A stretch of 64,000 nt of DNA from Picochlorum sp. SENEW3 (GCA_034226945.1 CP120455.1:620001-684000), one strand, 5' to 3'. Shown: positions 38,711-55,588, counted from the stretch's first letter. The notes: generated by a model not told the origin, from the letters alone. Numbers and translations: made by a program.

Positions 38711-39949
38711 ATGAAGAAGAGAATACTTACCACATTTGGCAACGGAGATTGTGGTCGCCTTGGCCATGGCACACCCTGCACGTCCATCGAAATCCCGAAG
38801 CAGGTATCTGCGCCTATTTTAGAAGGGTTTGAATACATCCAAGTCGCTTGCGGAGGAGCACATACCCTTGCATTGAGTACAGAAGGTTCTGTCGTCTCTT
38901 TTGGACTCAACGACAAAGGACAGCTGGGTCATACCGAAAGCGAGGCATGGGTGGCAGAGCCAATCGATGTCCCCATCCCAGAGGATGTGGTTCGTGTGGC
39001 AGCTGGACATTATCACTCGTTGGCTGTGGACAGGAATGGGGGTGTGTGGGCATGGGGGCAGAATGGGTCTGGTCAACTTGGACTGGGGAAGGAGGTTCAT
39101 ACAACATGTGATCCGAGACTGGTTGCCTCCATCAAGGATAGTGATATAGTATATGCTGCAGCTGGGGCTGCTCATTCGCTTCTTGTGAGCTCTGCAGGGG
39201 AGTTGTATTCGTGTGGAGATGGAGCACATGGGAGGCTGGGGCATGGAACAGCTGGGTCATCATCTATATTTCGGTACATTTCGACACAGGAGGAGTATAT
39301 TCCTAGGAAAGTGAGAGCTTTGGAGGCGAAAAAGATTGTGGCTGCAGCCGCAGGGCATATGCATTCTGCGTGCATAGACTCTGATGGGTTTGTATACACG
39401 TTTGGAAATGGGAGGCATTTGCAGCTGGGCACTGGGACTCGAGATGATTCGTCCATTCCTATCAAAGTACAAGGATTGGAATCCGTTGGATCGCTGGCGT
39501 GCGGTGGATACCATTCTCTGGCATCCACGCACTATGGAAAGACCATGGTGTGGGGTGCTGAGCAGCAGGGATGCTTGGGGTTGGGTAGCTCTGTCCCCCA
39601 TGGAGTACTACGCCCTCAGCCAATACCAGACTTTCAATCGATATCCGTAGCAGCCGGTTGGAAGCATTCCGCAGCCATAGATGATAGGGGGTGGGCTCAC
39701 TGCTGGGGATGGGGAGGATCTCAGGGCACTGCCATGAGCATAGATCATGGAGGCAGTGGAGGCGGGCAATTAGGTGGTGATGACTGTGACGCATGGTCTC
39801 CCCGTAGGATTGTTACCATCGAGATGGCAGATGGACTCGAGGTGCCCCAGTCCCAGTCACAGGGACATCTCATCTGGAAGGCAGTGAGCATGTCTTGCGG
39901 ACTTAATCACACGGCCATGATTGTTGAACTTATCAATGGCGCTGACTGA
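38711..39949 (+). CDS. RCC1-repeat protein (UVR8/RUG-like family)
   Basis: About seven RCC1 repeats (ACGGAHT, GQLG, AAGHYHS and others). Confidence 0.9.
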   Translation: MKKRILTTFGNGDCGRLGHGTPCTSIEIPKQVSAPILEGFEYIQVACGGAHTLALSTEGSVVSFGLNDKGQLGHTESEAWVAEPIDVPIPEDVVRVAAGHYHSLAVDRNGGVWAWGQNGSGQLGLGKEVHTTCDPRLVASIKDSDIVYAAAGAAHSLLVSSAGELYSCGDGAHGRLGHGTAGSSSIFRYISTQEEYIPRKVRALEAKKIVAAAAGHMHSACIDSDGFVYTFGNGRHLQLGTGTRDDSSIPIKVQGLESVGSLACGGYHSLASTHYGKTMVWGAEQQGCLGLGSSVPHGVLRPQPIPDFQSISVAAGWKHSAAIDDRGWAHCWGWGGSQGTAMSIDHGGSGGGQLGGDDCDAWSPRRIVTIEMADGLEVPQSQSQGHLIWKAVSMSCGLNHTAMIVELINGAD

Positions 39950-53290: not shown

Positions 53291-53350
53291 TATTTGACAA
53301 TGATATACATGACTGGTAACATTTATGTCGCACCACGGATGCATCACACT

Positions 53351-54028
53351 TTATTCGTTTTCTAATCCTTCTCTGCCTTGGTTGGTGGTGTCATCACCAT
53401 TGTTTTCCTCCTCGTCTTCCTCATCTGTGAGAGTTGCTTGAAGGATTGTACCATCAAGCTTTTTGAGATGAGGGAGACGTTTCATCATTTCTTGAGTATA
53501 CTCTGCCAAATTATTCTTCTTCTGATACCTTTTATAGAGAGGGTTACCTATGAACAACACATCCGATAGGTGGGGCAGACAACTCAACCTGTCAATTTCC
53601 TGCCAGTCTGAAATCTTGTTGTTCGACATGTACAGCACATTCAGTTTTTGGAGGCACTCAATACCCTCAAGTCGCTCAATAGCATTATAACTGATCCAAA
53701 GTTGTTCCAGGGTCCCTGCGACTGGCTGTATTCCATCCAGCTTGCGAATACCATTCCGTCCCACAGACAAGATTTTGAGGGGCATGGTATCAGACAAATT
53801 CTGGATCCTATCTATATTGTTCGTGGACAATGATAATTTTTCACACGATGTACAATCTTTGAGAATGCTATCCATCACTTGGATGGGAGGATACTGCCCG
53901 CTGAGATCAATGGCGGTGGCTGCACACTGGTCTGAGAGGTCTCCAAGGTTTGACAGTGCAGAAGCACAGTCTTGTACCTTTTTCTTCTTCGTGGCAGCGG
54001 CGCTCTTTACGCCCTTTTTCATCGTCAT
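53351..54028 (-). CDS. DNAL1: Axonemal outer-arm dynein light chain 1 (LC1, LRR)
   Basis: PPI..MD..L, LSLSTNNI, ILS.GRN, TLEQLWISYN, LYMSNNKI..W.EID, GNPLY and RLP.LKKLDG are collinear with LC1. Confidence 0.9.
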   Translation of the reverse strand: MTMKKGVKSAAATKKKKVQDCASALSNLGDLSDQCAATAIDLSGQYPPIQVMDSILKDCTSCEKLSLSTNNIDRIQNLSDTMPLKILSVGRNGIRKLDGIQPVAGTLEQLWISYNAIERLEGIECLQKLNVLYMSNNKISDWQEIDRLSCLPHLSDVLFIGNPLYKRYQKKNNLAEYTQEMMKRLPHLKKLDGTILQATLTDEEDEEENNGDDTTNQGREGLENE

Positions 54029-54228
54029 TATATTATACGCTGTTGTTTTTTTATAGTAGTCAAGATGGATCCATGTATGATACGTGTGTTTCCTCTCATG
54101 TGGCAGTGGTCAACATGGGGTGCATGTGTTGACCATCATCATGCATGTATACAGCGCACATGGCAATTCAAACAATAGGCCGTCGGCTGTATGCGGTACA
54201 TACCATTCTGCGAATTCAGAGGAGGGCG

Positions 54229-54237
54229 AAAAAAAAA
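54229..54237 (-). terminator. Pol III oligo-T terminator (T9)
   Basis: A9 run on the + strand, starting 10 nt downstream of the tRNA 5' half on the - strand. Confidence 0.75.
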
Positions 54238-54246
54238 TTTTCCGAA

Positions 54247-54345
54247 TACGAAGGGCATGCTCTAAGACCACTGAGCTACAGAAGCGTCAAGTAGAATGAT
54301 TTCTTCTTGTGCTTCTGGAGAGAATCGAACTCCCGACCCCACCCT
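54247..54345 (-). tRNA. Circularly permuted tRNA-Thr(CGU): 3' half 54345-54310, spacer 54309-54286, 5' half 54285-54247
   Basis: 3' half AGGGTGGGGTCGGGAGTTCGATTCTCTCCAGAAGCA precedes 5' half GCTTCTGTAGCTCAGTGGTCTTAGAGCATGCCCTTCGTA. Joined, they give a 7-bp acceptor stem, D, anticodon and T arms, and anticodon CGT. Confidence 0.88.
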
Positions 54346-54690
54346 GTTCCGTACCCATCCCTCAACCAGTTCACCCGGACAGGTCCAATCGCGATAGGAA
54401 AGGCCCTTGTGGGTGAGCAAGACGGGACAGCGAGCAAAAATTCGAATTTTTGACTGTACTAATTCAGGTCGAAAACGCATTTTGGCTTATACGACCTCTA
54501 GAGATGATAGAAAAGCAAAGCAAAAGGTATCATACGTGACTATAGTGCATCAATATACATGTAGGACAACATGGTGGGGTCAAAAACCAACAACGCAGTT
54601 GGTTGAGGATGGAATTTCATCATTCCACAACACACAGCACATCACCTCCTGTGTGAGAATACCATCACACACGCATGCAGCGTTACATAT

Positions 54691-55302
54691 TTATTCCTTT
54701 TTATCCGTATTTTTTGGAGGCGGATTCCCGCCACTCAACACATTGTAAAACAGAAACAAACTAATGGCCCCACTGGCCACACCAACAATCCCACTCAACC
54801 ATGGGAAGGCACCCAGCCTCCACAAACTGGTACACACATACGCCATGACACTTGAGCATACTCCCCCAGCAACTGTAAAAAGTGTACTATGTCCACCTGC
54901 TTTCCATGCCTTCAACGATAACGATGACAGAGCAATCTCAAATGCCCCAACACTCGCTGCAGTCAAGCCAAACTTGACTGCACCCTGAATAAAAACGCAA
55001 GCCAGCAGACCTACTGTGACCATAAAGGCCCCATATGGGATATTCATACAGAAATCATGAAGAACTGCATGGCGAGAACCACCCATGGTATCCGTGACTG
55101 GCGTTGAAGACGAACTAGCTGCAACCACTCTCCCTGATGCTCTTCCTAATCCGCTGATAGACCCTTTCTGGCGCTTGTTCACTACCGTATACAGCGAAGT
55201 TTTTAAAACAGATGAGCAGCGCGTACTTTGAGGAATCAGAGCAACTATGCCAGGACTCGAATCAATTCTGACAGATGCAGTGCGAAACAAACTCGCAGGC
55301 AT
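54691..55302 (-). CDS. TMEM14/FAX-family plastid fatty-acid export protein
   Basis: Transit peptide, HDFCMNIPYG, four TM helices and YNVLSGGNPPPK. Confidence 0.85.
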   Translation of the reverse strand: MPASLFRTASVRIDSSPGIVALIPQSTRCSSVLKTSLYTVVNKRQKGSISGLGRASGRVVAASSSSTPVTDTMGGSRHAVLHDFCMNIPYGAFMVTVGLLACVFIQGAVKFGLTAASVGAFEIALSSLSLKAWKAGGHSTLFTVAGGVCSSVMAYVCTSLWRLGAFPWLSGIVGVASGAISLFLFYNVLSGGNPPPKNTDKKE

Positions 55303-55588
55303 CTGAAGCAAGGTTTCAATCTATCCTCCCTAAAAATTGAGTTTTATTGCATAATGTGACGACGATATGGAAAGAGTCAAGGAACTGGATCTCAACGCGG
55401 TAGTACCCATGAGTAGTACTCAGATCTACTGTTGTGTGGGTATCTGCATCTAGATGCATTGCACTCTGTACAGACCACATGTGGTACCACCGGCGGTTGT
55501 TTTTTTTTAATTCTCGCCCAATCATCAAGTCTTTGATCAATCAATCACACAGAAATTACAAATCTTCATGTACATATGGTCATTATTA

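What the first reader, a model, noticed from the sequence alone, without database searches (positions are those of the whole stretch)
54229..54351. Circularly permuted tRNA-Thr(CGU) gene: 3' half encoded before the 5' half
Seen, on the - strand in order: leader, tRNA nt 38-73 (54345-54310), a 24-nt spacer, tRNA nt 1-37 (54285-54247), a short trailer, then T9. The halves complement each other. The acceptor GCTTCTG/CAGAAGC is perfect with A73, the D stem is GCTC/GAGC, the anticodon stem is TGCCC/GGGTG, the loop is TT-CGT-A|A, and the T arm is GGGAG-TTCGATT-CTCTC. The break falls at the canonical intron position 37/38. Leader CGGA can pair with U32-G35, leaving 3-nt bulges (AC|A38 and U36A37|U), which gives a relaxed bulge-helix-bulge endonuclease substrate; its outer helix is weak. 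The spacer folds into a hairpin (CAAG/CTTG and AGAA/TTCT, loop ATCA). The B box precedes the A box. I found no other tRNA half nearby. Established: permuted tRNAs mature through a circular intermediate and are known from Cyanidioschyzon, prasinophytes (Ostreococcus, Micromonas), a chlorarachniophyte nucleomorph and the archaeon Thermofilum. Inference: this is a functional example in an apparently trebouxiophyte-like genome, where I know of no report, and standard tRNA scans would likely miss it.
Basis: partly seen in the sequence, partly recalled or inferred. Interest (0 to 1): 0.92.

Follow-up and report, generated by a model that had tools for sequence, protein, structure and literature searches.

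The report
Back-to-front threonine tRNA gene, green alga
This is a real threonine tRNA gene written with its second half before its first half, so the RNA must be cut and rejoined to work; such genes are already known in a few algae, including a close relative of this one, so it is a new example and not a new kind.

Summary
On the minus strand lie tRNA nt 38-73 (54345-54310), a 24-nt spacer, tRNA nt 1-37 (54285-54247), a 9-nt trailer and T9. ARAGORN and Rfam call no tRNA in the window. The halves joined in a script give a clean 75-nt tRNA-Thr(CGU). Duplicated-tile scans hit only this locus and 0 of 9570 shuffled tiles. Independent contigs from two other studies span the same arrangement. In a strain about 5% diverged, no listed change falls in either half, while spacer and trailer change. 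The leader pairs with U32-G35, leaving two 3-nt bulges and no outer helix. That is the relaxed hBH form described for green-algal permuted genes. A related metagenome locus (L002) carries a permuted tRNA-Thr(AGU) whose leader changes to match its anticodon. Read loose ends show another permuted paralog in this alga. Two of two proteins place the genome in Chlorellales. Expression and absence of a conventional copy could not be tested. Verdict: new member of a known kind.

The parts
54346..54357 (-). 3' end of the leader. Bases 54351-54348 (CGGA) pair with U32-G35. Bases 54347-54346 (AC) plus A38 form the 3-nt bulge that holds the 3' cut site.
   Evidence: All 4 pairs of the central helix form (U:A, U.G, C:G, G:C). 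No listed change in 54346-54376 in the divergent X10 contig.
54310..54345 (-). 3' half of tRNA-Thr(CGU), nt 38-73: anticodon-stem 3' strand, variable loop, T arm, acceptor 3' strand and discriminator A73. The B-box-like AGTTCGATTCT lies at 54331-54321.
   Evidence: G53 at 54330. No listed change in X10 record 4.
54286..54309 (-). Intervening sequence of 24 nt. It closes the acceptor stem in the circular intermediate and would be removed by RNase P and tRNase Z (inferred). It has no T-run and does not start with CCA.
   Evidence: Its length varies between strains: two 2-nt deletions in X10. Its hairpin is therefore not conserved.
54247..54285 (-). 5' half of tRNA-Thr(CGU), nt 1-37: acceptor 5' strand, D arm, anticodon-stem 5' strand and loop up to A37. 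A box TAGCTCAGTGG at 54278-54268; anticodon CGT at 54250-54248.
   Evidence: No listed change in X10 record 4.
54238..54246 (-). Trailer TTCGGAAAA. Its first base together with U36 and A37 forms the 3-nt bulge that holds the 5' cut site. It is removed at circularisation (inferred).
   Evidence: It varies between strains: 3 substitutions and 1 inserted base in X10.
54229..54237 (-). T9 run, read as the RNA polymerase III terminator.
   Evidence: In X10 the run is interrupted, but by my reading of the listed changes runs of five T remain. In X3 it is one base shorter.
54435..54452 (-). AT-rich perfect palindrome 90-107 nt upstream of the 3' half. It is a possible upstream promoter element or boundary (speculative). 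It contains a T5 run on the gene's strand, so polymerase III transcription of the gene most likely starts downstream of it.
   Evidence: Read. The stretch 54378-54453 has no listed change in X10, and changes resume at 54454. Function not tested.

Best explanation
This is a genuine, probably single-copy, nuclear tRNA-Thr(CGU) gene of a Chlorellales green alga. It is encoded in circularly permuted order (type II, junction 37/38).

Proposed pathway; only the first step rests on what the sequence shows:
1. RNA polymerase III makes one transcript: leader, 3' half, 24-nt spacer, 5' half, short trailer, ending in the T9 run. The layout is shown by the sequence; transcription is inferred.
2. The two halves fold into the ordinary tRNA body. 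Leader bases CGGA pair with U32-G35, giving a 4-bp helix flanked by two 3-nt bulges (AC|A38 and U36-A37|U).
3. The tRNA splicing endonuclease cuts in both bulges, and the tRNA ligase joins A37 to A38. This yields a 99-nt circle that still holds the spacer (inferred by analogy with Cyanidioschyzon and the prasinophytes).
4. RNase P and tRNase Z remove the spacer at the acceptor stem and CCA is added, giving a 75-nt tRNA that reads ACG codons.

The gene most likely arose from a tandem duplicate whose outer halves decayed.
For: Anatomy and detection:
- Anatomy matches at every coordinate.
- The joined halves are called tRNA-Thr(cgt) by ARAGORN.
- Only this locus is found in 1595 tiles of the window, and 0 of 9570 shuffled tiles give a hit.
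- tRNA consensus nucleotides are present, as are G1:C72, C2:G71, G35, U36 and A37. That these are threonine identity elements and the t6A site is recalled knowledge.
- There is no T-run in the halves or spacer, T9 follows 9 nt after the 5' half, and CCA is not encoded.

Junction:
- The central helix forms with 4 of 4 pairs, the bulges are 3 nt, and the outer helix has 1 of 5 pairs. This is the hBH form that the 2014 review states for green-algal permuted genes (review PMC3978253, sections 4 and 8 read).
- In L002, a permuted tRNA-Thr(AGU) from a metagenome, the same helix forms with a compensating change: C34:G here becomes A34:U there. The leader also ends in AAC.

Comparison between strains:
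- X10 record 4 differs from the window at 23 substitutions and 15 gap letters over 693 nt.
- 22 of the 23 substitutions and all gap letters are listed, and none lies in the 75 nt of the halves.
- The 24-nt spacer has lost 4 nt. The 18 nt of trailer plus T-run carry 4 substitutions and 6 inserted bases.

Other points:
- A paralogous permuted gene exists. X10 record 5 is a 34261-nt contig at depth 26.6, against 24.3 for the contig holding this locus. Together with loose ends in X3, X10 and X8, it shows the 3' half at a second place, followed by a different short spacer and a 5' half with the same acceptor strand but another D stem.
- There is demand for the tRNA. ACG is 86 of 451 threonine codons in 14 Pfam-supported ORFs of the window.
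- Origin: in L002 the trailer aligns with that gene's own 3' half (score 25, null 13 +/- 2.4, p 0.002-0.003, 1 of 4954 real pieces as good).
Against: - No RNA evidence of any kind. All four runs laid were assembled contigs, the two guessed to be RNA were rated probably DNA, and no joint across 37/38 was seen.
- No whole genome is held. A conventional tRNA-Thr(CGU) elsewhere, and the presence of the endonuclease and ligase genes, could not be checked.
- No TATA-like sequence lies within 50 bp upstream, and the B box precedes the A box, so how transcription starts is unexplained.
- The unconstrained minimum-energy fold prefers a continuous 9-bp leader/anticodon-loop/trailer helix. That helix buries the 5' cut site in a helix instead of a bulge. 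It is not possible in L002, by my reading of the leader and trailer printed.
- The conservation test is weak. Unchanged blocks of 76 nt also occur in the flanks (54155-54230 and 54378-54453), and at the mean rate of the X10 contig zero events in 75 nt has a probability of about 0.05. One substitution of X10 record 4 is not listed and could lie anywhere.
- More divergent haplotypes cover part of the 3' half, but the places of their differences are not shown. These are X3 record 10 and X8 record 17, each with 11 differences in 119 or 107 nt.
- The window's own flanks show no relic of lost halves.
Confidence: 0.85

Rival explanations
1. A dead relic. Two tandem tRNA-Thr genes each lost one half, and what remains is not expressed or not matured. 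ACG is read by a conventional tRNA-Thr(CGU) elsewhere, or by tRNA-Thr(UGU).
For: - Tandem duplication followed by loss of the outer halves is the accepted origin model (review PMC3978253, section 10 passages). L002 shows such a relic.
- No expression data exist.
- No genome is held in which to look for a conventional copy.
- No upstream TATA-like element lies within 50 bp.
Against: - The break lies exactly at 37/38. The leader forms a 4-bp helix with the anticodon loop and two 3-nt bulges.
- That helix is kept by a compensating change in L002.
- A T9 run follows 9 nt after the 5' half, and no terminator lies inside the unit.
- Neither half has a listed change in a strain that has changed the spacer and trailer.
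- No piece laid in four runs joined the 5' half directly to the 3' half as a conventional copy would. This is weak, because contigs show presence and not absence.
Confidence: 0.07
2. The gene is functional but matures without a circle. RNase P and tRNase Z cut at the spacer first. The two base-paired pieces are then trimmed and ligated at 37/38, as with archaeal split tRNAs.
For: Nothing here speaks for it directly. [quoted passage not shown] The review notes that the order probably depends on where the enzymes are located (PMC3978253, section 6 passages).
Against: By the review's account, circular intermediates that keep the intervening sequence were found by RT-PCR for algal permuted tRNAs. 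I did not see the primary papers.
Confidence: 0.06
3. Not a decoding tRNA but a tRNA-like module of another small RNA, in the manner of bacterial YrlA (Y RNA-like) RNAs. In those, T arm, acceptor-like stem and D arm follow in this same order.
For: The only tRNA-related Rfam match in permissive mode is YrlA (RF02553). It scores 32.7 bits with E 1.3e-4 and covers 54223-54365 on the minus strand.
Against: - The score is far below the family's gathering score of 69.
- The window is a eukaryotic nuclear genome encoding Sec24, EMC1, condensin, Top3-beta and SmB.
- The locus has a complete anticodon arm with a sense anticodon and a full 7-bp acceptor stem, and ARAGORN calls the joined halves a standard tRNA-Thr.
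Confidence: 0.01
4. An assembly artefact that put two tRNA fragments side by side.
For: Short contigs of X3 and X8 break inside or beside the locus, at 54302/54317 and at 54334.
Against: Contigs of two other studies span the whole locus in the same order: X10 record 4, 1757 nt, and X9 record 24. The breaks are explained by the 3' half also being present at a second locus.
Confidence: 0.01

Closest known systems
Permuted tRNA genes of Auxenochlorella UTEX 250-A (Trebouxiophyceae, Chlorellales), Plant Cell 2025, PMC12636532
   Same: Same order of green algae, by the placement of two window proteins. Same architecture, with the 3' part before the 5' part, and likewise missed by tRNAscan-SE according to that paper.
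   Different: The text and the Fig. S1 legend that I could read show only a tRNA-Pro(UGG) and name no threonine tRNA. The stored supplement file was cut, so a fuller list may exist. The window has 45-48% G+C; as I recall, Auxenochlorella genomes are much more G+C-rich.
[quoted passage not shown] 2007; Table 1 of review PMC3978253)
   Same: Same isoacceptor, same type II junction at 37/38, and similar intervening lengths (31 and 24 bp there, 24 bp here). In both lineages at least two threonine tRNA genes are permuted; here that rests on the window gene, the paralog seen, and L002.
   Different: A red alga versus a green alga. C. merolae also has junctions at other positions, extra introns and an upstream TATA-like element within 50 bp in most genes. 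No such element is seen here. No sequence comparison was possible, because no C. merolae sequence was available from a tool.
Type II permuted tRNA genes of Mamiellophyceae (Ostreococcus, Micromonas) and of the Bigelowiella nucleomorph (Maruyama et al. 2010, as summarised in PMC3978253)
   Same: Green lineage. Junction at 37/38, a relaxed hBH motif without an outer helix, intervening sequence of 5-64 bp, and no encoded CCA.
   Different: None of the 21 genes listed there is a threonine tRNA; they are Ser, Leu, Cys, Arg, Asn and iMet. They come from a different class of green algae. The primary paper is not held.
YrlA / bacterial Y RNA-like RNAs (Rfam RF02553)
   Same: The order T arm, acceptor stem, D arm along the RNA, which gives a sub-threshold Rfam match.
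   Different: YrlA is bacterial, lacks a decoding anticodon arm, and is not processed into a tRNA (recalled). The score here is 32.7 against a gathering score of 69.

Membership tests
Circularly permuted tRNA genes, type II (junction 37/38) | 3' half lies upstream of the 5' half on the same strand, separated by a short intervening sequence (1-74 bp in known cases) | tested here: met
   36-nt 3' half, 24-nt spacer and 39-nt 5' half, all on the minus strand. The range is taken from review Table 1.
Circularly permuted tRNA genes, type II (junction 37/38) | The joined halves give a standard cloverleaf with eukaryotic consensus nucleotides (U8, R15:Y48, G18G19, U33, U54-U55-C56) | tested here: met
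   ARAGORN calls tRNA-Thr(cgt), 75 nt. All the named nucleotides can be read from the sequence. Control: 0 of 9570 shuffled tiles gave a hit. Infernal or tRNAscan-SE scoring of the joined sequence was not possible with the tools.
Circularly permuted tRNA genes, type II (junction 37/38) | Leader and trailer form a bulge-helix-bulge motif at the junction (relaxed hBH in green algae) | tested here: met
   The 4-bp helix U32-G35 with leader -3 to -6 forms, the two bulges are 3 nt each, and the outer helix has 1 of 5 pairs. The helix is kept by a compensating change in L002. Caveat: the minimum-energy fold prefers a competing 9-bp helix.
Circularly permuted tRNA genes, type II (junction 37/38) | One transcription unit: T-stretch after the 5' half, and no terminator or promoter signal in the intervening sequence | tested here: met
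   T9 starts 9 nt after A37. No run of four or more T occurs in the halves or spacer.
Circularly permuted tRNA genes, type II (junction 37/38) | Upstream TATA-like or AT-rich element (most C. merolae genes, some green-algal ones; not strictly defining) | tested here: inconclusive
   None lies within 50 bp upstream. An AT-rich palindrome lies 90-107 nt upstream at the edge of a block without listed change in X10.
Circularly permuted tRNA genes, type II (junction 37/38) | 3' CCA is not encoded (eukaryotic members) | tested here: met
   A73 is followed by CAAG.
Circularly permuted tRNA genes, type II (junction 37/38) | A circular RNA intermediate and a mature CCA-tailed tRNA are present in cells | not testable with these tools
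   Only assembled contigs were available. The two runs guessed to be RNA were rated probably DNA, and no joints were seen.
Circularly permuted tRNA genes, type II (junction 37/38) | The permuted gene is needed to complete the decoding set (no conventional gene for the same anticodon) | not testable with these tools
   No whole genome is held. The window has no other tRNA. ACG codons are in use: 86 of 451 Thr codons.
YrlA (Rfam RF02553) | Reaches the family's gathering score | tested here: not met
   32.7 bits against 69. No match in gathering mode.
YrlA (Rfam RF02553) | Bacterial genome context | tested here: not met
   The window encodes eukaryotic nuclear proteins, and their nearest named relatives are green algae.

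The most novel reading that the evidence does not exclude
The permuted state is old and heritable as a family in Chlorellales. On this reading a threonine tRNA gene was permuted once, then duplicated and changed its anticodon while permuted. The leader co-evolved each time to keep the 4-bp helix with the new anticodon. That would explain why the CGU gene here, its paralog in the same alga and the AGU gene of L002 share the acceptor stem, the T arm and, for the two whose leaders I could read in full (this gene and L002), the AAC leader end.

The same pair of isoacceptors is permuted in the red alga Cyanidioschyzon. This would then point to a predisposition of threonine tRNA genes, or to a much deeper origin than the patchy distribution suggests.
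Probability: 0.25. Interest if true: 0.6.

Novelty: new member of a known kind. Interest (0 to 1): 0.4.

Why it matters
**Annotation.** Standard tRNA finders miss this gene, so genomes of this group of compact marine and brackish picoalgae will seem to lack a tRNA for ACG codons. A duplicated-tile scan is a cheap remedy: 0 false calls in 9570 shuffled tiles.

**Distribution.** It adds a second Chlorellales lineage to the short list of eukaryotes with permuted tRNA genes. As far as my searches reach, it also adds the first threonine isoacceptors among green algae: none of the 21 green-lineage genes in the 2014 table is a threonine tRNA.

**Mechanism.** Three related loci with different anticodons or spacers give a small natural experiment. 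The leader changes with the anticodon, while spacer length and sequence drift freely. This says which parts the processing enzymes read.

**Origin.** L002 keeps a recognisable relic of the lost outer half. That supports origin by tandem duplication and decay.

Tried and rejected
- **Relics of lost halves beside the window's gene.** By eye the leader looked like a decayed 5' half and the region after T9 like a decayed 3' half. Local alignment against shuffles rejected both (p 0.89 and 0.99). 2465 and 2977 of 3000 random window pieces scored as well.
- **Metagenome loci L001 and L003.** These are chance matches to the search pattern: a plain hairpin in a repeated element, with no permuted tRNA by the tile scan. 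L003 only has an ordinary tRNA-Glu(ctc).
- **RNA evidence.** X8 and X9, guessed to be RNA, were rated probably DNA when laid. No joints and no starts or ends were reported.
- **Whole-genome questions.** No genome is held.
- **Cluster look-up for organism names.** The database was switched off.
- **Protein Atlas for taxonomy.** It gave only 'Eukaryota' level hits for EMC1.
- **L002 coding content.** There are no convincing ORFs in its 1436 nt, so its organism is not placed.
- **Earlier scan notes.** None exist for this genome and no look-alike stretch was found.
- **Maruyama et al. 2010.** The paper is not held.
- **Spacer hairpin as a functional element.** Rejected because the X10 strain deletes 4 nt of one arm and the spacers of L002 and the paralog are unrelated in sequence and length.
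- **The 9-bp leader/trailer helix of the minimum-energy fold as the relevant structure.** Not adopted, because L002 cannot form it. It is not excluded for this locus.

Full report
**1. What is there**

On the minus strand the sequence reads, in order:
- a leader ending CGGAAC (54351-54346);
- 36 nt that are tRNA positions 38-73 (54345-54310);
- a 24-nt spacer (54309-54286);
- 39 nt that are positions 1-37 (54285-54247);
- a trailer TTCGGAAAA (54246-54238);
- T9 (54237-54229).

The acceptor is 7 of 7 Watson-Crick with A73. The D stem is GCTC/GAGC. The anticodon stem has 5 bp with two G.U pairs. The anticodon CGT lies at 54250-54248. The T arm is GGGAG-TTCGATT-CTCTC. The consensus nucleotides that the 2014 review names for genuine algal tRNAs can all be read off: U8, R15:Y48, G18G19, U33 and U54-U55-C56 (review PMC3978253, section 4 read). 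CCA is not encoded. No run of four or more T lies inside the unit.

**2. Is it more than chance, and is it missed by standard tools?**

ARAGORN finds no tRNA in the 64-kb window. Rfam at gathering thresholds finds nothing either. When the two halves are joined in a script, ARAGORN calls a 75-nt tRNA-Thr(cgt) with a normal cloverleaf.

I then turned this into a scan. Each 240-nt tile of the window was duplicated head to tail, so that a permuted gene appears as a gene with an 'intron'.
- Of 1595 tiles, only the 4 overlapping tiles over this locus gave a call.
- Six dinucleotide-preserving shuffles of the window gave 0 calls in 9570 tiles.
- A second scan does not depend on the junction position. 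It looks for a T-loop motif followed within 90 nt by a complementary acceptor strand. It found 1 of 14 motifs, again this locus.

So the window holds one permuted gene and no further halves.

**3. Is the arrangement real DNA?**

The stretch 53300-55400 is held by runs of 11 studies. I laid four runs on 53900-54800. All were assembled contigs.
- X10 record 4 (1757 nt) spans 54108-54800, and X9 record 24 spans 54202-54396. Both come from studies other than the best holder and both keep the same order of parts. An assembly artefact is therefore excluded.
- The short contigs of X3 and X8 break at 54302/54317 and at 54334. This is explained by point 5 below.

**4. Comparison between strains**

X10 record 4 differs from the window by 23 substitutions and 15 gap letters over 693 nt. 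All gap letters and 22 of the 23 substitutions are listed.
- None of the listed changes lies in the 75 nt of the two halves.
- The 24-nt spacer has lost 4 nt (at 54303 and 54307).
- The trailer and T-run (18 nt) carry 4 substitutions and 6 inserted bases. By my reading of these changes, runs of five T remain.
- X9 record 24 has 1 substitution (54377) and 8 gap letters whose places are not listed.

This pattern is what a tRNA under selection, with a freely drifting spacer and trailer, would give. The test is weak, however. Blocks of 76 nt without listed change also occur in the flanks (54155-54230, 54378-54453). At the mean rate of that contig, zero events in 75 nt has a probability of about 0.05. 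One substitution is unlisted. Two more divergent haplotypes cover part of the 3' half without their differences being shown: X3 record 10 and X8 record 17, each with 11 differences.

It loses one arm in X10, so I do not count it as functional.

**5. A second permuted gene in the same alga, and a third in a relative**

In X10 a 34261-nt contig (record 5) matches only 54309-54348, with 5 differences. Its depth is 26.6, against 24.3 for the contig holding this locus. Loose ends in X3, X10 and X8 show what lies beside that match. Upstream is an unrelated leader. Downstream is a different short spacer, whose sequence differs between X3 and X10, and then a 5' half that starts with the same acceptor strand but has another D stem. 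That is a paralogous permuted gene.

Its leader, if its last three bases are as in the window, would pair perfectly with a loop reading UUAG. This predicts anticodon AGU (inference).

A pattern scan of metagenome contigs gave three loci. Two are chance hairpins. The third, L002, is a permuted tRNA-Thr(AGU) that ordinary ARAGORN also misses. It has a 36-nt 3' half, a 30-nt spacer, a 38-nt 5' half, and a T5 run 40 nt downstream.

**6. The junction**

With the tRNA body folded, leader bases -6 to -3 (CGGA) pair with G35-U32, and all 4 pairs form. This leaves the bulges AC|A38 and U36-A37|U, each cut after its second base. The outer helix has 1 of 5 pairs. This is the relaxed hBH form that the review gives for green-algal and nucleomorph permuted genes (section 8 read).

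In L002 the same helix forms with other bases. The changed anticodon base is matched in the leader: C34:G here, A34:U there. The leader again ends in AAC, and the outer helix is again absent. For a random leader the chance of four pairs is about 0.03 per locus (my arithmetic), so two loci give modest support.

Against this, the unconstrained minimum-energy fold of the precursor prefers a continuous 9-bp helix between the leader and U33 through trailer +4. That helix puts the 5' cut site inside a helix. L002 cannot form such a helix, so I take the 4-bp helix with bulges as the conserved feature, but the competing fold is not excluded.

**7. Which organism**

The window is a compact, intron-poor eukaryotic nuclear genome of 45-48% G+C. 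It encodes Sec24, EMC1, condensin, topoisomerase 3-beta and others.
- The nearest named relatives of its adenylate kinase are Micractinium and Chlorella, at 79-82% identity.
- Those of its UVR8-like protein are Nannochloris sp. (45%), then Myrmecia, Micractinium and Chlorella.

Two of two proteins thus point to Trebouxiophyceae, order Chlorellales. Closer unnamed relatives (98-99%, 85%, 80%) exist in environmental data. The genus is not determined. The composition and compactness remind me of the Nannochloris/Picochlorum group, but that is recall, not a test.

**8. What is known**

The review's Table 1 lists 34 permuted genes:
- 11 in Cyanidioschyzon merolae, among them Thr(CGT) with a 31-bp spacer and Thr(AGT) with a 24-bp spacer, both type II;
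- 19 in Ostreococcus and Micromonas;
- 2 in the Bigelowiella nucleomorph;
- 2 in Thermofilum.

None of the 21 green-lineage genes is a threonine tRNA.

A full-text search for 'permuted tRNA' found 74 papers, of which 30 were listed. Combined with Picochlorum, Bathycoccus, Trebouxiophyceae, Nannochloris or Chloropicon, or with Chlorella, the only paper that reports such genes in a trebouxiophyte is the Auxenochlorella genome paper (PMC12636532 and its preprint). It states that tRNAscan-SE gave an incomplete set and that permuted genes were then found. The legend of its Fig. S1 shows a tRNA-Pro(UGG) (passages read). The stored supplement file was cut, so a fuller list may exist.

A 2026 review of tRNA genes in photosynthetic organisms mentions permuted genes only for O. 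tauri, C. merolae, B. natans and archaea, and does not mention Chlorella-type algae (passages). The primary paper of Maruyama et al. 2010 is not held.

**9. Origin**

The accepted model is a tandem duplicate that lost its outer halves (review section 10 passages).
- The window's flanks show no trace of lost halves.
- In L002 the trailer, from its third base, aligns with that gene's own 3' half over the anticodon-stem strand, variable loop, T arm and the start of the acceptor strand, with small deletions. The score is 25 against 13 +/- 2.4 for shuffles (p 0.002-0.003), and 1 of 4954 random real pieces scores as well.
- I ran eight such tests in all, so the corrected p is about 0.02.
- The relic starts almost directly after A37. 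This suggests, without proving, that the ancestor of that gene had no long intron.

**10. Verdict**

This is a real permuted tRNA-Thr(CGU) gene, very probably functional. It meets every defining feature of the family that sequence can test. It lies in a lineage where the phenomenon was first reported in 2025 but not described for these isoacceptors.

Still missing are RNA evidence, a whole-genome tRNA census, and an explanation of how transcription starts. No TATA-like element lies within 50 bp, the B box precedes the A box, and an AT-rich palindrome lies 90-107 nt upstream at the edge of a block without listed change.

It is a new member of a known kind. Its main value is for annotation, and as a small comparative series showing which parts of the precursor are constrained.

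Noticed in passing
window 54435-54452 (minus strand): A perfect 18-nt AT-rich palindrome lies 90-107 nt upstream of the 3' half and contains a T5 run on the gene's strand. In the divergent X10 contig there is no listed change from 54378 to 54453, and changes resume at 54454. It could be a promoter or boundary element of the tRNA gene, or the 3' end signal of the upstream protein gene.
   Followed up: partly
window 54377: The window has G on the plus strand where contigs of all four runs laid have T. This is either a variant private to the source strain or a base error in the assembly.
   Followed up: no
not in the window; X10 record 5 and loose ends at 54309 and 54348: The same alga has a second permuted tRNA gene elsewhere in its genome. 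It has a near-identical 3' half, a shorter spacer that differs between strains, and a 5' half with another D stem. Its leader predicts anticodon AGU.
   Followed up: partly
L002 1313-1348 and 1245-1282 (minus strand): A metagenome contig carries a permuted tRNA-Thr(AGU) with a 30-nt spacer. Its trailer holds a recognisable decayed copy of the 3' half, which is a likely intermediate of the duplication-and-decay origin.
   Followed up: yes
window 54223-54365 (minus strand): Rfam's bacterial YrlA model gives a sub-threshold match (32.7 bits, E 1.3e-4), because YrlA has T arm, acceptor and D arm in the same permuted order. Such hits might serve as a cheap flag for permuted tRNA genes in eukaryotic genomes.
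   Followed up: partly
L001 1949-2118 and L003 2501-2539: A repeated element of about 130 nt has a strong hairpin and matched the search pattern by chance. In L003 it lies beside an ordinary tRNA-Glu(ctc) gene and shares about 30 nt with the sequence just before it. It may be a tRNA-linked repeat in an unrelated organism.
   Followed up: no
window 38711-39949 (+): A 412-aa RCC1-repeat protein whose relatives are named UV-B receptor UVR8 in plants and in Micractinium.
   Followed up: no
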